64,000 nucleotides of DNA from Octopus vulgaris (Eukaryota). The notes under the pieces are model-generated. The model was not told the DNA's origin. It saw only the letters and a program-made list of their open reading frames with translations, and did no database searches. The stretch covers positions 60,822,001-60,886,000 of the forward strand of contig OX597830.1 in NCBI GenBank assembly GCA_951406725.2, in the 5' to 3' direction. Each line of letters starts with the position of its first letter. The stretch's first letter is position 1. This document shows positions 1,904-56,620 of this stretch, one piece after another. The translations under genes were made by a program, and so were the position numbers.

Positions 1904-3322
1904 AAATATACCGTAAATGGTCTTTTTACATACTGAACACTATTTAGTAAAATTATTAATTAATAATTAATTAATTTTACCCTTTTATTATTGACTATAT
2001 ATATATATATATATACACACACACATACACATTTACATAACTACAGGCACAGCTGCATGGTTACGAAATCCACCCCCCAACTACATTTTCAATTTGGTCA
2101 AGGGTCTTGAGCAGAACAAAATATTAACTGGATTTGGTAGATGTAAACCAGAGAAAGAAGAAACCATCAGGTATGTCTTGACACCATAGAAAAGTTAACA
2201 TAAACCATCATCATCATCATCATACAACCAGTCTCTTACTTCCCAGCCACAGGGAAATAAAATATTACCTTTCTTACAAATGAGGGGGTTGGGTAACATG
2301 AGCATCAGGCTGCAAAGAATTTTGCCTCTGCATTCCGAAACATGGGTGAGTTGAGATTAAAATGACAAATGTTATATTATACATGTATATGAATATAAAT
2401 ATTACCTCCCATAAAAACAAGGGCATCCAGATCTAGAGAATTTCGTGTGATCCAAGCATAAAGAAGAACATTAAAATAATAATCACTACATAAATACATT
2501 ATACAAACATATATATAAGACCAAATATGCACAACCACCTACATACTCAAGAGGTATACTTCAGAAGTAGGATGGCACAAAATGTGACATGGATAGAGCT
2601 GGCAAATAGAATGCACTGAGAAAACCTCTACCCAATTTTTATCCACTTAATTTTATTTACAAGGCTGAGGATGACTTGAAACTTTGGTAAATGAGACATT
2701 CACAACCATCAAATATCATGTCTATGGTGCAAACAACTTTGCCACTTCAAAATGCAAATCTCATACATTATATATATATATATATATATGCTCAGGAGTG
2801 GCTGGTGTGGTATGAAGCTTGCTTCCTAACCACATGGTTTCGGGTTCAATCTCATTGCATGGCACTTTGGGTGTTGACTATAGCCTCGGGCCAACCAAAG
2901 CCTTGAATGGATTTGGTAGACGGAAACAAAGAAGCCTGTAGTGTATGTGTGTCTGTACCCTCACCCCACCATCACTTGTCAACTGATTTTCGAGTGTTTA
3001 CATCCCTTGGCAGTTTGGCAAAAGAGATTGATTGAATGAGTATCAGGCTTACAATAAGTTCTAGGGTTGATTATTTTGACTCAAGGCGGTACATCAGCAT
3101 GACCACAGTCAACTAGCTGAAACAAGTATATATATATGTGTGTGTGAATCCACAACTTTATGCATGTCTGCACAGATTTACAGAAAAATGTATATCACAT
3201 GTATCTATGCACATTCACATCTGCATTCACCTGTGAATGTACAGATGCGAATATGTGTTCACGTGTGTATATATATGCATATGTTCACATGTATGTATAT
3301 ATATGCACATTTTCACGTGTAC

Positions 3323-11148: not shown

Positions 11149-11386
11149 CTTTAGGGAATACGGAGATATAGACAAGGTTTCCCCATCCCTCATCTGGCGG
11201 GTGAAGACGGCCGTCGGTGAGCCGGACCCCGCGCATGCCACATGTTTCGGGGTTTCGATATTTGAGGCCGCAGGCTCCGGGGAACTGAGCGACCAGAGTG
11301 GTGAGCAGCAATGCCCCATCTTCTTCGGTCGGGACTTCGATCGGTTCGTCGTTCTCATCTTCAGCAACTTGGATGTACTGGCTCAT
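11149..11386 (-). CDS. TARDBP: TDP-43 paralog B, first coding exon (N-terminal domain, 238 nt); RRM exons not seen in the window
   Basis: [24 protein letters not shown]...[13 protein letters not shown], intact; acceptor TTCAG|G directly before the ATG; donor AAG|GTATGA at the conserved phase-1 position. Confidence 0.93.
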
Positions 11387-35143: not shown

Positions 35144-35788
35144 TTAATTCCATCCACCAGATTTTGATAGTGAACCCCCCCAATTTGCTGAATGCCCTTG
35201 ACCATTTTCTGCTGGGCCACCCCAACCCAAATAATTGTTATTGGGACCACTACCAATACTACCAAAGCTTTGGTTGCTATTTTGACTGTTAGACTCTCCC
35301 CCTCCACCTTGTCCCATTCCTAATGGCCCCCACCCCCCAGGCCCACTAAGCATGGCCTGAGCAGCTGCCAACATTGCTGGATTTATCTGAAAGTTGCCAA
35401 AATTCATCGGGGGTCCATTCATGTTGCCATTACTATTGCGGTTTCCCTGATTCCACCCACCCTGTCCATAACCTTGATTATAGTTGCCTTGAGGACCACG
35501 CCTATCCCAGTTGCCAGAGTTGCCGCTATTGTGTTTATCTGCAGGTTTCGGCAGTGCACTGCTCACATGAACGCTGACATTCTTCACAATGTGGTCTTCG
35601 CCACACAAAGCTTGAGCAATATCAGGATCAGTGAATGTAACAAATGCGAACGCCCGGAATGGTTTGGGGATAAAGACATCAATGACTTCACCATATTTAG
35701 AGAAGTAAGTGAGAAGGTCATCTTCGGTCATGTCTTCTGTACACCGGCCAACAAACACTTTACTGTTTACTTGCTGTTGACTACCATC
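35144..35788 (-). CDS. TARDBP: TDP-43 paralog A, coding exon 4 (RRM2 + G/N/Q-rich low-complexity domain); full protein 395 aa
   Basis: Acceptor TTTCTAG|GAT; [18 protein letters not shown], conserved helix [13 protein letters not shown], ends SKSGGWN-TAA; exon sum 238+164+141+645=1188 nt, in frame. Confidence 0.96.
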
Positions 35789-39078: not shown

Positions 39079-39316
39079 CTTTTGGAAAGACACTGAAGTA
39101 AACACGATCTTCCCATCCGTCTTCGGGAGGATACAACTGTCCGAGGCTGAGTCGAATCCCGCGCACTGCACATGTGTTGGGGTTGCGGTACTTGAGACCA
39201 CAAGCGCCGGGGAACTGGGCAGAGAGGGTGCTCAGCAAGAGAGTACCATCCAGCTCGATGGGGATCTCGATCAGCTCCGAATTCTCGTCCTCGGCAACTT
39301 GGATGTATTGACTCAT
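39079..39316 (-). CDS. TARDBP: TDP-43 paralog A, coding exon 1 (N-terminal domain, 238 nt)
   Basis: [19 protein letters not shown]...[14 protein letters not shown]...VFPK matches the TDP-43 NTD; ends at donor AAG|GTAAGT (phase 1), the same position as in vertebrate TARDBP. Confidence 0.96.
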
Positions 39317-39800: not shown

Positions 39801-39927
39801 TATACATATGTATATATGTGTATATGTGTGTGTGTGTAAATGTCAGTACGACGAATATACATGTATATACATTTGTGTGTGTGTGTGTCTCTCTCTCTCT
39901 CTCTCTATCTATATATATATATATACA

Positions 39928-40021
39928 TACTAGCAGTATCGCCCGGCGTTGCTCGGATTTGTAAGGGAAATAACTGTATAAGCATTTCTAGAGAGTTATA
40001 GCCATGTATATACATTTGTCC

Positions 40022-40061
<40 letters not shown>

Positions 40062-40140
40062 CGCCCGGCGTTGCTCGGGTTTGTAAGGGAAATAACTATA
40101 TAAGCATTTCTAGAGACTTATAGCCATGTATATACATTTG

Positions 40141-40177
<37 letters not shown>

Positions 40178-40573
40178 CTAGCAGTATCGCCCGGCGTTCC
40201 TCGGGTTTGTAAGGGAAATAACTATATGAGCATTTCTAGAGAGTTATAGCCAAAAAATAGCAAAAAAATGCATTAAAAATGGAAAAAAAATGATGGTAAA
40301 TTTTTTTTAAATCGTTGACTCATCGTAGACATTTTTAGAGAGTTACTTCCCTTATATAATAGCGAAAAATGCATTAAAATGGAAAAAATGATGGTAAATT
40401 TTTTTTTAAATTGTAGACTCATCGTAGATGCGCGCTAATACCCAGAAGGGCTCGATATGAATCACGACTATAAGATACCCGGTTTTGGTTAAACTGCACC
40501 GCAAAATGTGGGAGTAGTTAGGAATCTAAATCGTAGGAGACAGACACACAGCTTCACTTTTATATATAAAGAT
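39928..40573. mobile_element. Helentron/DINE-like non-autonomous element with triplicated end
   Basis: tactagcagtatcgcccggcgttgctcggg hairpin end repeated near 39928, 40060, 40176; other end cttttatatataaagat. Confidence 0.65.
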
Positions 40574-40816: not shown

Positions 40817-41020
40817 TACTCTTTTTACTCGTTTCAGTCATTTGACTGAGGTCCATGCTGGAGCACCGCCTTTAATCGAGCAACTCGACCCCGGGACTTA
40901 TTCTTTTGTAAGCCCAGTACTTATTCTATCGGTCTCTTTTGCCGAACCGCTAAGTTACGGGGACATAAACACACCAGCGTCGGTTGTCAAGCAATGCTAG
41001 GGGGACAAACACACACACGC
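40817..41020 (-). mobile_element. 3' half of the SINE interrupted by the hammerhead array
   Basis: Reverse complement of SINE positions about 17220-17395. Confidence 0.88.
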
Positions 41021-41045
<25 letters not shown>

Positions 41046-41052
<7 letters not shown>

Positions 41053-44000
41053 TTAATAAGGGTGAGAGAATTAGATACTAATTTAATAGTATATTTATTC
41101 AACACCAAGTGGCCTAGTGCTCCGAGAAACCTGGATTATTATAATATTTTATAACATATTATAATATTTTTACAAAATAAATATAAGAGAGTGGTCACTA
41201 TATTGCTCACTCTAGCACCAGTTAATCCAAAAGGTTTCAACCACGAAAATACATGTTTCCCATGAAAGTCAGTACGATTGTTAGCTCACACGGACAGGGC
41301 AAATAAAAAATAACAAAAATACAGATTATTTTGGGACAATTGTTTCGCTATTAATGAATTAAATGTAATTTTACTTACAAAAAAAATCCATTTGTAGCTC
41401 GTCAGCCAAAACTATCTGGATGAAATCCACTCAATCACACGCCAGATTTTACCATAACGATAAATACGCGTGTGGTTCAATTGATTACATCCGACGTTAT
41501 AATTCAAATGCCCCAACCAACAGCGCGCCAAACTTTCACGGAAAACAAATACAGCATTTAGAAATAAATGCAGCATAATTATAATTAATTAATAAGGGTG
41601 AGAGAATTAGATACTAATTTAATAGTATATTTATTCAACACCAAGTGGCCTAGTGCTCCGAGAAACCTGGATTATTATAATATTTTATAACATATTATAA
41701 TATTTTTACAAAATAAATATAAGAGAGTGGTCACTATATTGCTCACTCTAGCACCAGTTAATCCAAAAGGTTTCAACCACGAAAATACATGTTTCCCATG
41801 AAAGTCAGTACGATTGTTAGCTCACACGGACAGGGCAAATAAAAAATAACAAAAATACAGATTATTTTGGGACAATTGTTTCGCTATTAATGAATTAAAT
41901 GTAATTTTACTTACAAAAAAAATCCATTTGTAGCTCGTCAGCCAAAACTATCTGGATGAAATCCACTCAATCACACGCCAGATTTTACCATAACGATAAA
42001 TACGCGTGTGGTTCAATTGATTACATCCGACGTTATAATTCAAATGCCCCAACCAACAGCGCGCCAAACTTTCACGGAAAACAAATACAGCATTTAGAAA
42101 TAAATGCAGCATAATTATAATTAATTAATAAGGGTGAGAGAATTAGATACTAATTTAATAGTATATTTATTCAACACCAAGTGGCCTAGTGCTCCGAGAA
42201 ACCTGGATTATTATAATATTTTATAACATATTATAATATTTTTACAAAATAAATATAAGAGAGTGGTCACTATATTGCTCACTCTAGCACCAGTTAATCC
42301 AAAAGGTTTCAACCACGAAAATACATGTTTCCCATGAAAGTCAGTACGATTGTTAGCTCACACGGACAGGGCAAATAAAAAATAACAAAAATACAGATTA
42401 TTTTGGGACAATTGTTTCGCTATTAATGAATTAAATGTAATTTTACTTACAAAAAAAATCCATTTGTAGCTCGTCAGCCAAAACTATCTGGATGAAATCC
42501 ACTCAATCACACGCCAGATTTTACCATAACGATAAATACGCGTGTGGTTCAATTGATTACATCCGACGTTATAATTCAAATGCCCCAACCAACAGCGCGC
42601 CAAACTTTCACGGAAAACAAATACAGCATTTAGAAATAAATGCAGCATAATTATAATTAATTAATAAGGGTGAGAGAATTAGATACTAATTTAATAGTAT
42701 ATTTATTCAACACCAAGTGGCCTAGTGCTCCGAGAAACCTGGATTATTATAATATTTTATAACATATTATAATATTTTTACAAAATAAATATAAGAGAGT
42801 GGTCACTATATTGCTCACTCTAGCACCAGTTAATCCAAAAGGTTTCAACCACGAAAATACATGTTTCCCATGAAAGTCAGTACGATTGTTAGCTCACACG
42901 GACAGGGCAAATAAAAAATAACAAAAATACAGATTATTTTGGGACAATTGTTTCGCTATTAATGAATTAAATGTAATTTTACTTACAAAAAAAATCCATT
43001 TGTAGCTCGTCAGCCAAAACTATCTGGATGAAATCCACTCAATCACACGCCAGATTTTACCATAACGATAAATACGCGTGTGGTTCAATTGATTACATCC
43101 GACGTTATAATTCAAATGCCCCAACCAACAGCGCGCCAAACTTTCACGGAAAACAAATACAGCATTTAGAAATAAATGCAGCATAATTATAATTAATTAA
43201 TAAGGGTGAGAGAATTAGATACTAATTTAATAGTATATTTATTCAACACCAAGTGGCCTAGTGCTCCGAGAAACCTGGATTATTATAATATTTTATAACA
43301 TATTATAATATTTTTACAAAATAAATATAAGAGAGTGGTCACTATATTGCTCACTCTAGCACCAGTTAATCCAAAAGGTTTCAACCACGAAAATACATGT
43401 TTCCCATGAAAGTCAGTACGATTGTTAGCTCACACGGACAGGGCAAATAAAAAATAACAAAAATACAGATTATTTTGGGACAATTGTTTCGCTATTAATG
43501 AATTAAATGTAATTTTACTTACAAAAAAATCCATTTGTAGCTCGTCAGCCAAAACTATCTGGATGAAATCCACTCAATCACACGCCAGATTTTACCATAA
43601 CGATAAATACGCGTGTGGTTCAATTGATTACATCCGACGTTATAATTCAAATGCCCCAACCAACAGCGCGCCAAACTTTCACGGAAAACAAATACAGCAT
43701 TTAGAAATAAATGCAGCATAATTATAATTAATTAATAAGGGTGAGAGAATTAGATACTAATTTAATAGTATATTTATTCAACACCAAGTGGCCTAGTGCT
43801 CCGAGAAACCTGGATTATTATAATATTTTATAACATATTATAATATTTTTACAAAATAAATATAAGAGAGTGGTCACTATATTGCTCACTCTAGCACCAG
43901 TTAATCCAAAAGGTTTCAACCACGAAAATACATGTTTCCCATGAAAGTCAGTACGATTGTTAGCTCACACGGACAGGGCAAATAAAAAATAACAAAAATA

Positions 44001-47000
44001 CAGATTATTTTGGGACAATTGTTTCGCTATTAATGAATTAAATGTAATTTTACTTACAAAAAAAATCCATTTGTAGCTCGTCAGCCAAAACTATCTGGAT
44101 GAAATCCACTCAATCACACGCCAGATTTTACCATAACGATAAATACGCGTGTGGTTCAATTGATTACATCCGACGTTATAATTCAAATGCCCCAACCAAC
44201 AGCGCGCCAAACTTTCACGGAAAACAAATACAGCATTTAGAAATAAATGCAGCATAATTATAATTAATTAATAAGGGTGAGAGAATTAGATACTAATTTA
44301 ATAGTATATTTATTCAACACCAAGTGGCCTAGTGCTCCGAGAAACCTGGATTATTATAATATTTTATAACATATTATAATATTTTTACAAAATAAATATA
44401 AGAGAGTGGTCACTATATTGCTCACTCTAGCACCAGTTAATCCAAAAGGTTTCAACCACGAAAATACATGTTTCCCATGAAAGTCAGTACGATTGTTAGC
44501 TCACACGGACAGGGCAAATAAAAAATAACAAAAATACAGATTATTTTGGGACAATTGTTTCGCTATTAATGAATTAAATGTAATTTTACTTACAAAAAAA
44601 TCCATTTGTAGCTCGTCAGCCAAAACTATCTGGATGAAATCCACTCAATCACACGCCAGATTTTACCATAACGATAAATACGCGTGTGGTTCAATTGATT
44701 ACATCCGACGTTATAATTCAAATGCCCCAACCAACAGCGCGCCAAACTTTCACGGAAAACAAATACAGCATTTAGAAATAAATGCAGCATAATTATAATT
44801 AATTAATAAGGGTGAGAGAATTAGATACTAATTTAATAGTATATTTATTCAACACCAAGTGGCCTAGTGCTCCGAGAAACCTGGATTATTATAATATTTT
44901 ATAACATATTATAATATTTTTACAAAATAAATATAAGAGAGTGGTCACTATATTGCTCACTCTAGCACCAGTTAATCCAAAAGGTTTCAACCACGAAAAT
45001 ACATGTTTCCCATGAAAGTCAGTACGATTGTTAGCTCACACGGACAGGGCAAATAAAAAATAACAAAAATACAGATTATTTTGGGACAATTGTTTCGCTA
45101 TTAATGAATTAAATGTAATTTTACTTACAAAAAAATCCATTTGTAGCTCGTCAGCCAAAACTATCTGGATGAAATCCACTCAATCACACGCCAGATTTTA
45201 CCATAACGATAAATACGCGTGTGGTTCAATTGATTACATCCGACGTTATAATTCAAATGCCCCAACCAACAGCGCGCCAAACTTTCACGGAAAACAAATA
45301 CAGCATTTAGAAATAAATGCAGCATAATTATAATTAATTAATAAGGGTGAGAGAATTAGATACTAATTTAATAGTATATTTATTCAACACCAAGTGGCCT
45401 AGTGCTCCGAGAAACCTGGATTATTATAATATTTTATAACATATTATAATATTTTTACAAAATAAATATAAGAGAGTGGTCACTATATTGCTCACTCTAG
45501 CACCAGTTAATCCAAAAGGTTTCAACCACGAAAATACATGTTTCCCATGAAAGTCAGTACGATTGTTAGCTCACACGGACAGGGCAAATAAAAAATAACA
45601 AAAATACAGATTATTTTGGGACAATTGTTTCGCTATTAATGAATTAAATGTAATTTTACTTACAAAAAAATCCATTTGTAGCTCGTCAGCCAAAACTATC
45701 TGGATGAAATCCACTCAATCACACGCCAGATTTTACCATAACGATAAATACGCGTGTGGTTCAATTGATTACATCCGACGTTATAATTCAAATGCCCCAA
45801 CCAACAGCGCGCCAAACTTTCACGGAAAACAAATACAGCATTTAGAAATAAATGCAGCATAATTATAATTAATTAATAAGGGTGAGAGAATTAGATACTA
45901 ATTTAATAGTATATTTATTCAACACCAAGTGGCCTAGTGCTCCGAGAAACCTGGATTATTATAATATTTTATAACATATTATAATATTTTTACAAAATAA
46001 ATATAAGAGAGTGGTCACTATATTGCTCACTCTAGCACCAGTTAATCCAAAAGGTTTCAACCACGAAAATACATGTTTCCCATGAAAGTCAGTACGATTG
46101 TTAGCTCACACGGACAGGGCAAATAAAAAATAACAAAAATACAGATTATTTTGGGACAATTGTTTCGCTATTAATGAATTAAATGTAATTTTACTTACAA
46201 AAAAAATCCATTTGTAGCTCGTCAGCCAAAACTATCTGGATGAAATCCACTCAATCACACGCCAGATTTTACCATAACGATAAATACGCGTGTGGTTCAA
46301 TTGATTACATCCGACGTTATAATTCAAATGCCCCAACCAACAGCGCGCCAAACTTTCACGGAAAACAAATACAGCATTTAGAAATAAATGCAGCATAATT
46401 ATAATTAATTAATAAGGGTGAGAGAATTAGATACTAATTTAATAGTATATTTATTCAACACCAAGTGGCCTAGTGCTCCGAGAAACCTGGATTATTATAA
46501 TATTTTATAACATATTATAATATTTTTACAAAATAAATATAAGAGAGTGGTCACTATATTGCTCACTCTAGCACCAGTTAATCCAAAAGGTTTCAACCAC
46601 GAAAATACATGTTTCCCATGAAAGTCAGTACGATTGTTAGCTCACACGGACAGGGCAAATAAAAAATAACAAAAATACAGATTATTTTGGGACAATTGTT
46701 TCGCTATTAATGAATTAAATGTAATTTTACTTACAAAAAAAATCCATTTGTAGCTCGTCAGCCAAAACTATCTGGATGAAATCCACTCAATCACACGCCA
46801 GATTTTACCATAACGATAAATACGCGTGTGGTTCAATTGATTACATCCGACGTTATAATTCAAATGCCCCAACCAACAGCGCGCCAAACTTTCACGGAAA
46901 ACAAATACAGCATTTAGAAATAAATGCAGCATAATTATAATTAATTAATAAGGGTGAGAGAATTAGATACTAATTTAATAGTATATTTATTCAACACCAA

Positions 47001-47042
47001 GTGGCCTAGTGCTCCGAGAAACCTGGATTATTATAATATTTT
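41046..47042 (-). repeat. Tandem array, 11 full 535-536 nt units plus a partial unit, hammerhead on the minus strand
   Basis: Unit marker gggtgagag at 41060, 41596, 42132, 42668, 43204, 43739, 44275, 44810, 45345, 45880, 46416, 46952; by eye units differ only in an A7/A8 run. Confidence 0.98.
41322..41418 (-). ncRNA. Type I hammerhead ribozyme, first of 11 minus-strand copies (others start near 41858, 42394, 42930, 43466, 44001, 44537, 45072, 45607, 46142, 46678)
   Basis: CAGAUAGUUUUGG-CUGACGA-GCUA(long hairpin)UAGC-GAAA-CAAUUG-UC^CCAAAAUAAUCUG: full core, helix I UUUUGG/CCAAAA plus CAGAU/AUCUG, palindromic helix III. Confidence 0.92.
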
Positions 47043-47388
47043 GGATTAACTGGTGCTAGAGTGAGCAATATAGTGACCACTCTCTTATATTTATTTTGTA
47101 AAAATATTATAATATGTTATAAAATATTATAATAATCCAGGTTTCTCGGAGCACTAGGCCACTTGGTGTTGAATAAATATACTATTAAATTAGTATCTAA
47201 TTCTCTCACCCTTATTAATTAATTATAATTATGCTGCATTTATTTCTAAATGCTGTATTTGTTTTCCGTGAAAGTTTGGCGCGCTGTTGGTTGGGGCATT
47301 TGAATTATAACGTCGGATGTAATCAATTGAACCACACGCGTATTTATCGTTATGGTAAAATCTGGCGTGTGATTGAGTGGATTTCATC

Positions 47389-47484
47389 CAGATAGTTTTG
47401 GCTGACGAGCTACAAATGGATTTTTTTGTAAGTAAAATTACATTTAATTCATTAATAGCGAAACAATTGTCCCAAAATAATCTG
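47389..47484 (+). ncRNA. Type I hammerhead ribozyme; predicted cleavage after C47471
   Basis: CTGACGA 47402-47408, GAAA 47460-47463, CAATTGTC 47464-47471, helix I arms flanking. Confidence 0.92.
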
Positions 47485-47923
47485 TATTTTTGTTATTTTT
47501 TATTTGCCCTGTCCGTGTGAGCTAACAATCGTACTGACTTTCATGGGAAACATGTATTTTCGTGGTTGAAACCTTTTGGATTAACTGGTGCTAGAGTGAG
47601 CAATATAGTGACCACTCTCTTATATTTATTTTGTAAAAATATTATAATATGTTATAAAATATTATAATAATCCAGGTTTCTCGGAGCACTAGGCCACTTG
47701 GTGTTGAATAAATATACTATTAAATTAGTATCTAATTCTCTCACCCTTATTAATTAATTATAATTATGCTGCATTTATTTCTAAATGCTGTATTTGTTTT
47801 CCGTGAAAGTTTGGCGCGCTGTTGGTTGGGGCATTTGAATTATAACGTCGGATGTAATCAATTGAACCACACGCGTATTTATCGTTATGGTAAAATCTGG
47901 CGTGTGATTGAGTGGATTTCATC

Positions 47924-48020
47924 CAGATAGTTTTGGCTGACGAGCTACAAATGGATTTTTTTTGTAAGTAAAATTACATTTAATTCATTAATAGCGAAAC
48001 AATTGTCCCAAAATAATCTG
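47924..48020 (+). ncRNA. Type I hammerhead ribozyme
   Basis: Same motif as 47389-47484. Confidence 0.9.
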
Positions 48021-48459
48021 TATTTTTGTTATTTTTTATTTGCCCTGTCCGTGTGAGCTAACAATCGTACTGACTTTCATGGGAAACATGTATTTTCGTG
48101 GTTGAAACCTTTTGGATTAACTGGTGCTAGAGTGAGCAATATAGTGACCACTCTCTTATATTTATTTTGTAAAAATATTATAATATGTTATAAAATATTA
48201 TAATAATCCAGGTTTCTCGGAGCACTAGGCCACTTGGTGTTGAATAAATATACTATTAAATTAGTATCTAATTCTCTCACCCTTATTAATTAATTATAAT
48301 TATGCTGCATTTATTTCTAAATGCTGTATTTGTTTTCCGTGAAAGTTTGGCGCGCTGTTGGTTGGGGCATTTGAATTATAACGTCGGATGTAATCAATTG
48401 AACCACACGCGTATTTATCGTTATGGTAAAATCTGGCGTGTGATTGAGTGGATTTCATC

Positions 48460-48557
48460 CAGATAGTTTTGGCTGACGAGCTACAAATGGATTTTTTTTT
48501 GTAAGTAAAATTACATTTAATTCATTAATAGCGAAACAATTGTCCCAAAATAATCTG
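48460..48557 (+). ncRNA. Type I hammerhead ribozyme
   Basis: Same motif, with a longer U-run in helix II. Confidence 0.9.
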
Positions 48558-48996
48558 TATTTTTGTTATTTTTTATTTGCCCTGTCCGTGTGAGCTAACA
48601 ATCGTTCTGACTTTCATGGGAAACATGTATTTTCGTGGTAGAAACCTTTTGGATTAACTGGTGCTAGAGTGAGCAATATAGTGACCACTCTCTTATATTT
48701 ATTTTGTAAAAATATTATAATATGTTATAAAATATTATAATAATCCAGGTTTCTCGGAGCACTAGGCCACTTGGTGTTGAATAAATATACTATTAAATTA
48801 GTATCTAATTCTCTCACCCTTATTAATTAATTATAATTATGCTGCATTTATTTCTAAATGCTGTATTTGTTTTCCGTGAAAGTTTGGCGCGCTGTTGGTT
48901 GGGGCATTTGAATTATAACGTCGGATGTAATCAATTGAACCACACGCGTATTTATCGTTATGGTAAAATCTGGCGTGTGATTGAGTGGATTTCATC

Positions 48997-49092
48997 CAGA
49001 TAGTTTTGGCTGACGAGCTACAAATGGATTTTTTTGTAAGTAAAATTACATTTAATTCATTAATAGCGAAACAATTGTCCCAAAATAATCTG
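48997..49092 (+). ncRNA. Type I hammerhead ribozyme
   Basis: Same motif as 47389-47484. Confidence 0.9.
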
Positions 49093-49239
49093 TATTTTTG
49101 TTATTTTTTATTTGCCCTGTCCGTGTGAGCTAACAATCGTACTGACTTTCATGGGAAACATGTATTTTCGTGGTTGAAACCTTTTGGATTAACTGGTGCT
49201 AGAGTGAGCAATATAGTGACCACTCTCTTATATTTATAT

Positions 49240-49302
<63 letters not shown>

Positions 49303-49304
<2 letters not shown>

Positions 49305-49425
49305 TACGACGGGCTTCTTTTCAGTTTCCGTCTACCAAATCCACTCACAAGGCTTTGGTCGGCCCGAGGCTATAGTAGAAGATACTTGCCCAAGGCGTCA
49401 CGCAGTGGGACTGAACCCGGAACCA
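49303..49425 (-). mobile_element. 5' half of the SINE interrupted by the hammerhead array
   Basis: Reverse complement of SINE positions about 17045-17168. Confidence 0.88.
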
Positions 49426-49987
49426 TACAAATGTTTATCTATATATATATATTTACATCAATTATGTGAATTTATGTGTATGTTTATAAACACATGCATA
49501 TATACATATGTATATACTTTTGTAAATATATGACACACACACACATATAGATAAATAAGTAAGGGTAAGATCTAAGGATCAAGGTGTAGGAAGTTAGTAA
49601 GCTTTAAGCAATCCGTCGAAGATATAAAAAACAACTTTCGTGAACAACAGTGGTTTATTGGTGCAGAAGGTTGTGAATTGTTTCTACATTTCGATCAAAT
49701 CTCCAACAAGTTAACATGGGATCTCCTAACGACAATGTAAACTTCATATAATCAAGGTATCCTTGGCCTGAAGTATGCTGTCTACTCTTTACTGAGGTTC
49801 CACTAGCTGTGAAATATATGTAACCTGAACTCTTTATCTACGCTATTTCCTAATTTTTACCTATTTGACATTTGAGTACTCAGAACACACACCTATTAGT
49901 TTGAGCCACCCGAGTGAAAACACTTCATATATAATATATATATATATACAAAAGAAGGTTTGAAAATGCAATTTAAAAGATGTTTAT

Positions 49988-52390: not shown

Positions 52391-54716
52391 TCTATTTCAG
52401 TTTCCTTTTCCTGTCTACAGCATGAAGAACACCAACATCAACCCTAAATACTGGGAGTAAGATGCAGATGACAGAGCAGCATAGCATCACCTCATCAAGA
52501 TTGTTGCAGAAAAACATTGTTGAAGAAAGGAAGATAAATGGATATGACAAAAGACCTGCCAAAGTCTCAAACAAATCATCAAATGTGACCACTATGGACA
52601 ACTGTTCCACAGAAAAAATTAGAGGAACTGATATATATATGAAGAAGCACAAATGAAAAAACAAATACTCAGAAACAAGCCTGCTGCTAATATATTTCTG
52701 TGTTTATTTTTAACACTATATATCTATAAGCGATGTTATTCTCAGAATGAATACTGCAGTTTAGAAGGCTTTTAACAGCATATATGCTTTAAGTATGATA
52801 TACAGATCACTAGTTTGAACTAATGCCTTTTCTGTGATTGATAACAAATTTTATTCAGCCTACCAGCTAAATATGACATCAGTGACCTTTCAGTCACTGT
52901 ATTATTGCATCACATGGCAATTAATACTTGTAGACACATAAATTTCAATATTTTGATGTTTGTTCTTCTACTCCTCTACATATTTATACATACAGATTCA
53001 TACATACATACCTACATATATACGTGTGCATGTGCATGTGTACACACACAGACACACACACACATACTTGTGTGCAGATAAGAATCTGTTCATGTATTTA
53101 GGGTTGTAAATATGTGACTATGTATGTATAATTAAATGTGAGAGCATGTAAAGAAAATAGCACAAGTGTCTGTGTATACATAAAATACTTATCACAATAT
53201 ATGTGTGCTTGTGTAAGAATATATGTGCATGAAAATGGATGTAATTAATTATTTTCTCGGATACTTTCATCAAGGTTATCGGAAATATTGAAAATTTGCC
53301 CTTTGATATTCAGACAATAAGTTTGCTGATCAAGTGACAATTTATATCTGTGATGACTGGAAAATGCTTGATTGTCACAGTCAGCTGTCAAGCATCTTTA
53401 CAAATGGTTACACAATGTGATACATACTTGTACTGATAAACCAAATGGTCAAGCCAAATGGTCAAGCCAGAATGAAGCTAATTACCTTATCAAATCCTAC
53501 TATTCCTCCTCCATCAATTTTCTTCTCTCTCTCTCTTCCTATATTTGCCTTGAATGTATATGTTTAGTAGGAACTGTCCACTTCAGAATGGTATGAGAGT
53601 ACTTACTAGCGAGATTGGCTAATCAGTCAGCATGTTAGTTTTTGTGAAGTTCTGAGGAATCACTTCCAATGAGTGCAGTGAAAGAAGATTTACAAAGTGA
53701 CAGAGAATAGATCAATAATTGGTGACATGTTAACAAAATGACACAAGATTGGTTAAAAAGTAAGTTGATGAAACAATTGTTAGCAATGTATGAAAAGGAA
53801 TATTATGAACTCCATTCTTAGATGTTTTACAGGATTGTCCCCTCCATCCCTCTCCAGCTGAGCATTGCCAATCTTGTAGGCTAATAGGTGCTGGTGCCAC
53901 ATAAAAAGCACCCATACCCATATAAATGCACCAGTGCTAGTGCTGCATAGAAGCACTCTGTAATATGGGCAGTGGTAGGAAGGGCATCCAGCCATAGAAA
54001 CCATGCCAAACACACAAGGAGTCTGGGCCACTCCTCAGCTGGTCTGCTCCTGTCAAACCTTCCAACTCATGCTAGCATAGAAAACAGATGTTAAATGATG
54101 ATGATGATGATATATATATGAGACCAAAGTGTACATAAGCCGCTATATATATACATATATATATAAAAAATACAAAATGGGACAAGAACACACAACAAGT
54201 TTTCTTTCTTCAGTTGAGTTCCAGATTATCTTTGCAATTTGGGCTGGTTATACTTGAGATTGCTCCAATCTGGCCCGTCCCAAGAAAAAACTAAGCTAAG
54301 AGCATAGATTCCTTGGAAGAAAGCAGTGAATGTATACAAAAACTAGGACGGGAAAAAAATGGAGAATGTTACACAAATACAAATAACAGGACATAACAAC
54401 AGGTGTCTTTCGACTAAGGACAAATTAAATTAAGCTGGCATGTGTAGAAATAAAGCCTACGGCAGAGATATAAGATTTCGCAGGCACAGGGAGGAATATA
54501 GATGTTGCACAGACGATGGCTGAACCAAGAAAGAACAGCCAAAATTGCAAAGATAATCTGGAACTCGACTGAGGAAAGAAAACTCCGAATGACCCGTCCT
54601 TGTTTTCTTTGTATCATCTATCTGGATGTTTTGTTGTCCCTTCTTTGTATCACCTAACTGTCTAGATGTTTTGCGTTCTTGTCCTATTTTGTATTTGATA
54701 TATATATATATAATAA

Positions 54717-55358
54717 TAATTAATTAATAAGGGTGCATGGGAAACATGTATTTTTGTGGTTGAAACCTTTTGGATTAACTGGTGCTAGAGTGAGCCATAT
54801 AGTGACCACTCTCTTATATTTATTTTGTAAAAATATTATAATATATTATAAAATATTATAATAATCCAGGTTTCTCGGAGCACTAGGCCACTTGGTGTAG
54901 AATAGATATACTATTAAATTAGTATCTAATTCTCTCACCCTTATTAATTAATTATAATTATGCTGCATTTATTTCTAAATGCTGTATTTGTTTTCCGTGA
55001 AAGTTTGGCGCGCTGTTAGTTGGGGCATTTGAATTATAACGTCGGATGTAATCAATTGAACCACACGCGTATTTATCGTTATGGTAAAATCTGGCGTGTG
55101 ATTGAGTGGATTTCATCCAGATAGTTTTGGCTGAAGAGCTACAAGTGGATTTTATTGTAAGTAAAATTACATTTAATTCATTAATAGCGAAACAATTGTC
55201 CCAAAATAATCTGTATTTGTTATTTTTTATTTGCCCTGTCCGTGTGAGCTAACAATCGTACTGACTTTCATGGGAAACATGTATTTTTGTGGTTGAAACC
55301 TTTTGGATTAACTGGTGCTAGAGTGAGCCATATAGTGACCACTCTCTTATATTTATTT
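54717..55358 (+). mobile_element. Solo (about 1.15 unit) copy of the hammerhead repeat with a short inverted 5' piece, in (TA)n
   Basis: Same unit with about 10 differences; terminal redundancy catgggaaac...ctctcttatatttattt; inverted taattaattaataagggtg at the left end. Confidence 0.93.
55118..55213 (+). ncRNA. Type I hammerhead ribozyme (CUGAAGA variant)
   Basis: ttttgg-CTGAAGA-gcta...tagc-GAAA-caattg-TC-ccaaaa; only the free N7 position of the core differs. Confidence 0.9.
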
Positions 55359-55447
55359 TATATATAATAATAAATATTAGGGAATAAATCCAAATTTACA
55401 GGGAAAAATCAGATTTAGGATTGAATCCAATTTTATAGTAAAATATA

Positions 55448-55649: not shown

Positions 55650-56620
55650 ATATATATATAAGAGACCAAAGTGTACATACACTGCTATATGTATATAAAA
55701 AAAATACAAAAACTGGGACAAGAATGCAACAGGTGACAACAAGACATCCAGGGCAGTTAGATGATACAAAAAGGGATAAGGAAAATGTAAGCTAAGAGCA
55801 CTAGATTCCTTGGAAGAAAGCAGTGAATGCATACGAAAACAAGGACAAAAAAACAGAGAAATGGTACACAAATACAAATGCAAACAGCAGGACATTAACA
55901 ACAGGTGTCTTTCAACTAAGGACAAATTAAATTAAGCTGGCGTGTGTGGAAGTGAAGCCTTACTGCAGGGACATAAGAGATAACAGGCATGGGAAGGAAT
56001 ATAAATATTGCACGGATGGTAGTCAAACCAGGAAAGGTCAAGCTTAGCCAAACACTGGTCACGTGGAAGGAGAGGAGAGCGGTAGAGGCAGAGGGATAGA
56101 AAAATTAGAGAGGGATGAGAAAAAAGAAAAGGGACAGACCGAAGTGAAAGAGGAGGGAAGGTGAGAATGAAGGGAAGGCCAGGTAATGTGAGAGAGGAGG
56201 AATGAAAGAAAGAAGAGTAGAAAGAATGAAGTGTGAAGGGGCTGAAAGAAAGAAAGAATGAAAGAATAAGAGATTCATACAAAATTTATATATATATATG
56301 TACTTACATATAAGAGACCAAAATGTGCATACGCCGTTATATGTATAGAAAAGGGAATACAAAAATGGGACAAGAATGCAACAGGCTACAACAAGACATC
56401 CACACAGATGATACAAAAAAGGACGAGAAAAAACAGGGACGGGTCATTTGGAATTTTCTTTCGTCAGTCGAGTTCCTGCAAAGATAATCTGGAACACGAC
56501 TGATGAAAGAAAACTCCAACTGACCTATCCCTATTTTTCTTTGTCCCTTTTTGTGTCATCTAACTGTCTGGATGTCCCAATTTTTGTATTCTTTTTTATA
56601 TACATATATATATATATATG

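What the first reader, a model, noticed from the sequence alone, without database searches (positions are those of the whole stretch)
41046..49235. 8.2-kb array of 15 hammerhead ribozymes: retrozyme / Penelope pLTR-like concatemer
Seen: non-coding 535-537 nt units, each with a complete type I hammerhead core (CUGACGA...GAAA...GUC), helix I, and a palindromic ACAAUUGU helix III. The units are almost identical, so the array is very young or was made in one event. Established: tandem type I hammerheads with palindromic helix III mark PLE pseudo-LTRs and animal non-LTR retrozymes, which self-process into monomers and circular RNAs. Inference: a transcript would be cut into about 536-nt monomers that circularise, and the array may be a rolling-circle reverse-transcription product. 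I cannot tell whether this family has been described.
Basis: partly seen in the sequence, partly recalled or inferred. Interest (0 to 1): 0.92.

Follow-up and report, generated by a model that had tools for sequence, protein, structure and literature searches.

The report
Two-armed hammerhead retrozyme insertion
This is one very young copy of a ribozyme-carrying mobile element of a known kind, and its two-armed shape, repeated across the genome, suggests how a Penelope-type reverse transcriptase pastes a small RNA circle into DNA from both cut strands at once.

Summary
The 15 type I hammerheads in 535-537 nt non-coding units are real.

It is one insertion of a young non-LTR retrozyme family (886 exact A ends and 2153 intact cleavage junctions genome-wide). 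Insertions end at two RNA positions, A (291) and B (about 160). Of 77 inverted insertions, 75 have one end of each kind; none is A/A or B/B. An intact Neptune-type Penelope element in the same genome shows the same pairing (7 of 7).

Arms cross the cleavage site precisely, haplotypes are mostly shared by both arms, and some arm pairs share no sequence. Best reading: both nicked target strands prime separate cDNAs, one at A and one at B, which roll around a monomeric RNA circle and are end-joined.

Cleavage, circles and the partner enzyme are not shown. Twelve partly shared variants do not fit one clean circle. The class is known; the paired-priming evidence is the new part.

The parts
41044..47042 (-). 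Arm A: 5999 nt, 11.2 units, 11 hammerheads; 3' end at monomer position 291, 5' end at position 185
47039..49237 (+). Arm B: 2199 nt, 4.1 units, 4 hammerheads; 5' end at monomer position 103, 3' end at about position 158
47039..47042 (.). Inversion junction: the two 5' ends overlap by 4 nt
   Evidence: WIN: plus5 103, minus5 185, overlap 4
41021..41066 (-). A end running into the left (TA)n target; the last 4 nt of the unit are shared with the target
   Evidence: 886 exact copies of this end in the genome
49219..49290 (+). B end, short slipped T/A-rich letters, then the right (TA)n target
   Evidence: 552 copies for the spellings searched
47472..48007 (+). Reference monomer, cleavage site to cleavage site (536 nt); all monomer numbering refers to it
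47924..48020 (+). Representative type I hammerhead: helix I (13 positions, one mismatch), core 47937-47943, helix II extended by a 43-nt structured loop, GAAA at 47996, palindromic 8-nt helix III, predicted cut after 48007
40817..41020 (.). Left half of the dispersed host repeat whose internal microsatellite was the target
   Evidence: both flanks match in register to uninterrupted copies, e.g. 62230-61883 at 93-95%
49280..49426 (.). Right half of the same host repeat
54715..55359 (.). Second, independent insertion of the family in this window (other haplotype): about 21-nt A arm on minus, 1.2-unit B arm on plus, one hammerhead, (TA)n on both sides

Best explanation
A non-autonomous, Penelope-mobilised retrozyme.

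1. A tandem copy is transcribed, and two neighbouring hammerheads pair through their palindromic helix III and cut out 536-nt monomers (inferred; known for this class).
2. A host ligase closes the monomer. With one ribozyme, the circle cannot form helix III and stays intact (inferred).
3. A Neptune-type Penelope RT/GIY-YIG protein binds the circle and nicks both strands of a (TA)n tract (inferred; target preference shown).
4. One nicked strand primes at RNA site A (291, 4-nt match to the target). The other primes at site B (158-161, little match, often slipped). One of each per insertion is shown as a pattern; the priming itself is inferred.
5. Each cDNA runs 5'-ward across the ligated site for a variable number of laps, about 0.55 survival per lap (lengths shown; circle inferred).
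6. The two cDNA ends are joined by 0-4 nt microhomology or a short insert, and the gaps are filled (junctions shown).

The window's array is one such event with unusually long arms (11.2 and 4.1 laps).
For: End rule: of 77 inverted insertions, 75 are A/B, none A/A or B/B, and 2 have one atypical end (unclear rows resolved). Among 48 chosen by an A end, 47 partners end at B. Among 26 chosen without regard to ends, 25 are A/B.

Same rule in an intact Neptune-type element (781-aa RT + GIY-YIG frame, four copies 99.0-99.8% identical): its two 3' ends lie about 37 nt apart, and 7 of 7 divergent pairs within 20 kb are short/long (P about 0.001).

Independent cDNAs: in 7 of 48 A-anchored inverted loci neither arm contains the other's end site (L087, L143, L147, L148, L153, L165, L185). 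52 of 70 junctions are offset by more than 30 nt. Microhomology of 3 nt or more occurs in 15 of 45 flush junctions against 7% expected.

Template continuous across the cut: 49 of 73 A arms cross it and 0 of 73 stop within 4 nt of it. 357 of 361 passages are exact and none is altered at the scissile bond. 1 of 388 downstream halves begins exactly there.

Monomer bottleneck: 30 haplotypes among 53 multi-unit loci, up to 20 fixed differences from the reference, about 0.1% differences within a locus; both arms agree at 238 of 270 non-reference sites; 5 private variants are fixed across both arms.

Ribozyme conserved while position 7 varies: 60 of 337 cores differ only at N7, and one haplotype carries a compensated C-G pair in helix I. 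Single-unit errors lean to wobble types expected on an RNA template (34 v 16, P 0.045; weak).
Against: No cleavage or circular RNA was observed. The public runs are contigs, and their RNA status is a guess.

Twelve variants are shared by some but not all units of a locus (0.14-0.4 expected from independent errors), and 32 of 270 non-reference sites differ between arms. One clean circle does not predict this. It needs a damaged template base, two template molecules, multimers, later gene conversion or assembly mixing.

Junctions within 30 nt of a palindrome are in excess (18 of 70 v 8 expected), so some fold-back may occur. Arms of 11-18 laps look more frequent than 0.55 per lap predicts.

No homology was found between the monomer and the Penelope loci examined (20 loci around the endonuclease, 6 longer stretches). 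The resemblance at the A end (hairpin, CTAAT, then C[CT]TATTA) was noticed afterwards and not tested. 6136 GIY-YIG candidates exist and 150 were scored, so the partner is not identified. In vitro, the Anolis protein used the same start sites on both strands and did not need ribozyme cleavage (PMC11167929).
Confidence: 0.6

Rival explanations
1. Same double priming at A and B, but the template is an uncleaved linear multimer or a multimeric circle (a read-through transcript of an older array, or made by RNA-to-RNA rolling replication).
For: Explains variants shared by some units, also across arms (L066, L149, L150, L154) and at 12-unit spacing in L056. Unprocessed RNA was the main substrate for the Anolis element in vitro (PMC11167929). 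Exact junctions fit equally well.
Against: A new mutation would stay in one unit, yet 30 haplotypes are fixed across whole loci and 5 private variants across both arms. The 12-unit period holds for only 2 of 5 informative variants. Arrays could only shrink each generation. The core is conserved as if cleavage mattered.
Confidence: 0.22
2. Insertions are born short by Penelope-type priming, and the long arrays grow afterwards by unequal crossing-over and gene conversion (the satellite route discussed in bioRxiv 10.64898/2026.07.22.740005).
For: Arm-specific shared variants (L042, L053), the heavy tail of long arms, and the 12 partly shared variants.
Against: Both arms are often multimeric. A-arm lengths fall off geometrically from the first lap (49, 26, 16, 9, 4 of 73). 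Singletons outnumber shared variants 94 to 12, far from a conversion equilibrium, and most shared variants lie in non-adjacent units. Crossing-over within an arm cannot fix a variant across an inversion.
Confidence: 0.1
3. The inversion arises by self-priming (fold-back) of one cDNA, as proposed for Penelope elements of a rotifer (PMC3846280).
For: Near-palindromic junctions are in excess (18 of 70 within 30 nt v 8 expected; offset 0 in L097 and L170).
Against: 52 of 70 junctions are not palindromic. In 7 loci neither arm contains the other's end site, which fold-back cannot make. In this window the offset is 82 nt.
Confidence: 0.05
4. Assembly artefact: one or two units expanded, or two loci joined in error.
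For: The units are nearly identical and long reads were not examined. Polishing could explain some partly shared variants.
Against: The flanks are the two halves, in register, of one dispersed repeat. The same anatomy recurs at 76 other inverted loci on many contigs, with arrays up to 18 units. Units differ in T-run length and one has private substitutions.
Confidence: 0.03

Closest known systems
Metazoan non-LTR retrozymes (coral, mussel, axolotl: PMC7229834; vertebrates: bioRxiv 10.64898/2026.07.22.740005)
   Same: Non-coding, low-GC tandem units, each with a type I hammerhead; dispersed multimers; proposed circRNA template and Penelope partner.
   Different: Described as head-to-tail repeats. 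In the text I read or searched there is no inverted two-arm anatomy, fixed 3' ends or microsatellite target ('inverted' occurs 0 times in PMC7229834 and once, in a reference, in the preprint). The unit is 536 nt against a typical 300, with a long structured loop II. The preprint discusses later satellite expansion; here arrays look born long.
Penelope-like element insertions (Neptune, Naiad, Penelope/Poseidon; PMC8557442, PMC3846280)
   Same: Inverted 5'-truncated copy at the 5' end, a 'tail' at only one end, (TA)n targeting, no visible target-site duplication.
   Different: No ORF; the tail is about 130 nt, not 30-40; arms are multi-lap copies of one unit. The papers call the tail optional, explain it by endonuclease resolution and explain the inversion by self-priming; the data here point to two independent cDNAs, one per site.
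Poseidon of Anolis carolinensis in vitro (PMC11167929)
   Same: Two internal RT start sites that define the tail; nicks and extends both strands of AT-rich DNA; predicted dimer.
   Different: No strand difference in start site was seen, and no pairing rule or circular template was tested; ribozyme cleavage was dispensable there.
L1 twin priming
   Same: Both target strands prime cDNA, giving a 5' inversion with two outward-facing 3' ends.
   Different: In L1 the second primer lands at variable internal sites and the two segments roughly abut. Here both sites are fixed, and the arms overlap in sequence and exceed unit length.
Neptune-type element of this genome (L213-L216)
   Same: (TA)n target, two 3' ends, one of each per inverted copy (7 of 7), young and intact.
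   Different: Autonomous; ends about 37 nt apart; no canonical hammerhead core found by pattern in its full-length copies; no detectable homology to the monomer.

Membership tests
Type I hammerhead ribozyme | Core CUGAnGA, GAAA, NUH in type I order | tested here: met
   all 15 window copies carry the CUGACGA core and the GAAA-to-GUC stretch
Type I hammerhead ribozyme | Helices I and II form | tested here: met
   pair probabilities 0.96-1.0 in the circular monomer; compensated pair in one haplotype
Type I hammerhead ribozyme | Helix III stable in the monomer | tested here: not met
   pair probability 0; the 8-nt palindrome pairs as a dimer at -6.4 kcal/mol. This is the usual metazoan dimer-dependent form (PMC4209133) and does not exclude membership.
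Type I hammerhead ribozyme | Rfam RF00163 gathering score (34 bits) | tested here: inconclusive
   30.1 bits, E 5.1e-6, full model matched with a 40-nt insertion in loop II
Type I hammerhead ribozyme | Self-cleavage | not testable with these tools
   needs in vitro transcription
Non-LTR retrozyme | Two or more consecutive tandem units, each with a type I hammerhead | tested here: met
   11 + 4 here; 53 loci with two or more full units among 117
Non-LTR retrozyme | Non-coding, no LTR structure, GC under 45% | tested here: met
   longest frames 58 and 69 codons; GC 31-33%
Non-LTR retrozyme | Dispersed and mobile | tested here: met
   886 exact A ends, 2153 junctions, control pattern 0; uninterrupted copies of the host repeat exist
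Non-LTR retrozyme | Expressed as monomeric linear and circular RNA | tested here: inconclusive
   three runs guessed to be RNA cover all 30 bins and show A>G changes absent from the DNA-like run, but contigs cannot show ends or circles
Penelope-type insertion (works like) | Inverted 5'-truncated copy with a tail at one end only | tested here: met
   75 of 77 inverted insertions A/B; tail about 130 nt
Penelope-type insertion (works like) | (TA)n microsatellite target | tested here: met
Autonomous Penelope-like element | RT plus GIY-YIG ORF | tested here: not met
   no ORF in the unit; the only coding flank I translated, shared by three loci, is a broken non-LTR LINE
pLTR derivative of a specific Penelope family | Sequence homology to that family's pLTR | tested here: inconclusive
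   none in 20 + 6 loci; only 150 of 6136 GIY-YIG candidates scored
Neptune/Nematis clade (candidate partner L213) | C-terminal GIY-YIG preceded by CX2-5CxxC | tested here: met
   RVT_1 at 259-442 (just under its cut-off), GIY-YIG at 685-772; CX4CxxC linker; definition from PMC8557442
Neptune/Nematis clade (candidate partner L213) | RT phylogeny | not tested
   no reference Penelope RTs were fetched

The most novel reading that the evidence does not exclude
Penelope-type integration is an asymmetric double target-primed reaction. One RNP primes the two nicked strands at two different fixed RNA sites, always one of each. On a ribozyme-made circle both RTs roll for many laps on the same molecule, so retrozyme 'satellites' are born as finished inverted arrays. 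The optional tail and inverted pLTR of Penelope elements would then be one phenomenon. Scattered locus-specific repeat errors would be one damaged base of one circle read many times, a natural single-molecule record in the genome.
Probability: 0.45. Interest if true: 0.78.

Novelty: new member of a known kind. Interest (0 to 1): 0.57.

Why it matters
How Penelope-like elements make their inverted, one-tailed insertions is called undefined in PMC8557442. That retrozymes move by rolling-circle reverse transcription has been a proposal since PMC4209133 and PMC7229834. This family offers roughly a thousand very young insertions with two well-separated priming sites, haplotype markers, and a young intact candidate enzyme in the same genome. 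That makes both questions testable by counting and in vitro. An RT that rolls up to 18 times round a 536-nt circle and writes into both strands of a microsatellite is also of biochemical interest. The element class itself is known.

Tried and rejected
- Rfam at gathering score over the window: no match. The evalue scan of 47000-48100 gave only sub-threshold hits, nearly all microRNA families on the inversion hairpin; rejected as chance.
- Tandem Repeats Finder missed the array because its period limit is 500.
- L075, L164 and L166 share a flank and looked like an autonomous carrier. The flank is a broken non-LTR LINE (R4-like label recalled), and the three loci are one duplicated event, counted once.
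- No homology of the monomer to Penelope loci. The candidate RT has no relative in viral contigs.
- Linear cleaved monomer as template, with or without end-to-end jumps: rejected, because there is no pile-up or scar at the cut. only sees junctions whose anchors lie 10-40 nt apart.
- Fixed trimer or 12-mer circle: the periodicity fails at the next expected unit.
- Sequencing runs: no listed holder is on record as RNA; this is no evidence either way.
- A-to-I edited RNA as the template: not supported. The A100 change is common in the RNA-like runs, absent from the DNA-like run, and seen once among arm comparisons.
- A third family for the pairing rule gave only one scorable pair, long/short.
- Earlier findings of this scan: none.
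- No structure or complex prediction was run.
- Dropped before counts: L075 and L166 (duplicates); L072 (left out; its partner L102 gave no junction there); L060 (A/B by eye, missed by the script); monomer positions 13-35, 157-199, 276-299, 478-499 and all gaps.
Full report
1. Observation. The window holds 15 hammerhead cores in 535-537 nt units. Eleven lie on the minus strand and four on the plus strand. Numbering below refers to the monomer 47472-48007, cleavage site to cleavage site. Arm A runs 47042 to 41044 (monomer 185 through 11.2 laps to 291). Arm B runs 47039 to 49237 (103 through 4.1 laps to about 158). The 5' ends overlap by 4 nt. Both 3' ends run into (TA)n. The flanks are the two halves of one dispersed repeat that occurs uninterrupted elsewhere in the window at 93-95% identity, so this is one clean insertion. 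A transcript across the junction would carry 11 or 4 ribozymes, not 15, and would fold into a hairpin of about 2.2 kb.

2. The ribozyme. Rfam Hammerhead_1 aligns over its whole model at 30.1 bits (gathering score 34), with a 40-nt insertion in loop II. Helices I and II form with probability 0.96-1.0 in the circular monomer. Helix III does not form in the monomer, but its 8-nt palindrome pairs between two copies. That is the dimer-dependent form described for metazoan hammerheads, active in multimers and silent in monomeric circles (PMC4209133, passages). Of 337 cores in my loci, 254 match the window, 60 differ only at the free position 7, 14 also carry U4C (two loci), and 9 have other changes. 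One haplotype has a compensated C-G pair in helix I. Activity is inferred, not shown.

3. The family. The genome has 2.8 Gb in 227 contigs. It is probably an octopod; that is my inference from size and repeat content, and no call names it. A search with the unit gave 234 matches in 40 scored of 1031 candidates, the full-length ones 96-100% identical. Exact patterns give 886 A ends, 2153 intact cleavage junctions and 552 B ends for the spellings searched, with reversed controls at 0. I examined three sets: 39 loci from the similarity list plus the two in the window; all 75 exact A ends on contig 1, which are 73 independent events; and the first 30 B ends.

4. Two fixed ends, one of each. The A end is precise and shares 4 nt with the target. 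The B end varies over 158-161, often with short slipped T/A-rich repeats. The script found 77 inverted insertions and labelled 70 A/B, 6 unclear and 1 B/B. By eye, the B/B row and the unclear rows are A/B with variant spellings. Two rows labelled A/B have one atypical end: L051 ends at 317 without (TA)n, and L164 ends near 179 against a LINE. The count is therefore 75 of 77, with no A/A and no B/B. Allowing for how loci were chosen: 47 of 48 A-anchored loci have a B partner (chance 0.5^47 if sites were independent and equally used), and 25 of 26 loci chosen without regard to ends are A/B. About a third of A-anchored loci show no second arm long enough to detect; several have (TA)n on both sides and a few letters of a B end.

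5. The arms are separate cDNAs. In 7 of 48 A-anchored inverted loci neither arm reaches the other's end site; in L087 the arms are 228-291 and 140-158. Fold-back self-priming, proposed for rotifer Penelope elements (PMC3846280, passages), cannot make these. Of 70 junctions, 45 are flush or overlapping (15 with 3 nt or more, 7% expected) and 25 have unmatched letters, some of them haplotype differences. 52 are offset by more than 30 nt. The 18 within 30 nt (8 expected) may include true fold-backs.

6. The template. 49 of 73 A arms cross the cleavage site, and 26, 16, 9 and 4 go on to further laps; none stops within 4 nt of the site. 357 of 361 passages are exact and none is changed at the scissile bond; 1 of 388 downstream halves begins exactly there. 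So the template is not a cut linear monomer. Between circle and uncleaved multimer: 53 multi-unit loci show 30 haplotypes with up to 20 fixed differences from the reference, while units within a locus differ at about 0.1%. Both arms agree at 238 of 270 non-reference sites, and 5 private variants are fixed across both arms. That points to a single-unit bottleneck in each cycle, which a circle provides. Against this, 12 variants occur in some but not all units of a locus, far above the 0.14-0.4 expected, mostly in non-adjacent units and five times in both arms. A damaged base re-read on one circle would give this, but so would two template molecules, multimers, gene conversion or assembly mixing; I cannot separate these. 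Single-unit errors lean to the wobble types expected on an RNA template (34 v 16, P 0.045), which is weak support.

7. The enzyme. A GIY-YIG search gave 148 matches in 150 scored of 6136 candidates, many with the same 781-codon open frame. [quoted passage not shown] By the definition in PMC8557442 (passages) this is Neptune- or Nematis-type. It inserts into (TA)n and has two 3' ends about 37 nt apart, with 541 and 183 exact copies. Among 100 short and 33 long ends in the shared range, all 7 divergent pairs are short/long (P about 0.001). It shares no detectable homology with the monomer, has no canonical hammerhead core by pattern, and is one of several such families, so it is a candidate only.

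8. Expression. Twenty listed runs hold the unit, none on record as RNA. Three runs guessed to be RNA cover all 30 bins. They show A>G at monomer A100 (39%, 47% and 32% of summed contig depth, against none in the DNA-like run), at A62, and in two runs at A15; one run also shows T>C changes. This looks like A-to-I editing of both strands, as the inverted arms would invite, but no DNA run of the same individuals was available. It does not show circles.

9. What is known. Non-LTR retrozymes and the proposal of circular templates for Penelope RTs: PMC7229834 (passages and Discussion), PMC4209133 (passages), PMC7761336 (passages), and bioRxiv 10.64898/2026.07.22.740005 (parts 1-3 of 5, abstract through discussion; supplements closed, and its species table could bear on prior description). 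Inverted copies and a tail at one end: PMC8557442 and PMC3846280 (passages). Two internal start sites, extension of both strands and a predicted dimer: PMC11167929 (parts 1-2 of 4; supplements not read). L1 twin priming is recalled. Searches returned no paper on a cephalopod retrozyme family, on inverted retrozyme arrays or on a one-of-each rule. Subscription journals and repeat databases were not searched, and the tail-at-one-end observation already states the rule qualitatively.

10. Verdict. A new member of a known kind (non-LTR retrozyme; about 0.93 that this label is right). That the array is one insertion made from two independently primed cDNAs: about 0.85. That the template is a monomeric circle: about 0.65. 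Whole mechanism 0.6. Interest 0.57: the element class is not a surprise, but the counted pairing rule, the evidence against fold-back and an intact candidate enzyme make an open mechanism directly testable.

Noticed in passing
window 39316-35144 (-) and 11386 (-): Two tandem TDP-43 (TARDBP) paralogues: one with coding exons from the start codon at 39316 to the RRM2/C-terminal exon at 35144, and the first coding exon of a second at 11386. The array ends about 1.7 kb upstream of the first start codon, so it may sit in the promoter or a 5' UTR intron.
   Followed up: partly
window 54120-54700, 55655-56040, 56300-56590: A different repeat family with minimal hammerhead-like cores on both strands (54225, 54557, 56479, 56488), internal inversions and (TA)n flanks, probably pLTR fragments of another Penelope family. 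The first copy has one long and one short end; the third looks the same by eye. The second retrozyme insertion is nested in the (TA)n tail of the first copy.
   Followed up: partly
L199 (reverse strand 2691-3175): Inverted insertion of a related retrozyme-like family in the (TA)n tail of a Neptune-type copy: hammerhead with the same long structured loop II and another palindromic helix III, about 64% alike over 118 nt. Further hammerheads with palindromic helix III occur in L002/L032, L128 and L146.
   Followed up: partly
L213 1381-5084, L215 1318-5021: The Neptune-type element has an intact upstream frame (479 codons stop to stop) overlapping the RT-endonuclease frame in another phase, which suggests a frameshift or an intron; no convincing Pfam match.
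   Followed up: no
L075, L164, L166: One retrozyme insertion joined to the 5' part of a broken non-LTR LINE is present at three places on contig 1 at 98.6-99.9% identity, by segmental duplication or LINE-mediated copying.
   Followed up: partly
window 47871-48406 laid on runs X1, X2, X5: A>G changes at monomer positions 3-6 (one contig), 15, 62 and 100, and T>C changes in one run, absent or nearly absent in the DNA-like run; possible A-to-I editing of both strands.
   Followed up: partly
L033, L042, L064, L108, L112, L114, L171: Several B arms have their 5' end at 275-284, inside the palindromic A site. This could be a B-primed RT stopping where the A primer sits on the same RNA, or simply microhomology; not tested statistically.
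   Followed up: no
window 39897-40252: Three tandem copies of a 122-nt unit at the start of another dispersed repeat, just upstream of the TDP-43 start codon.
   Followed up: no
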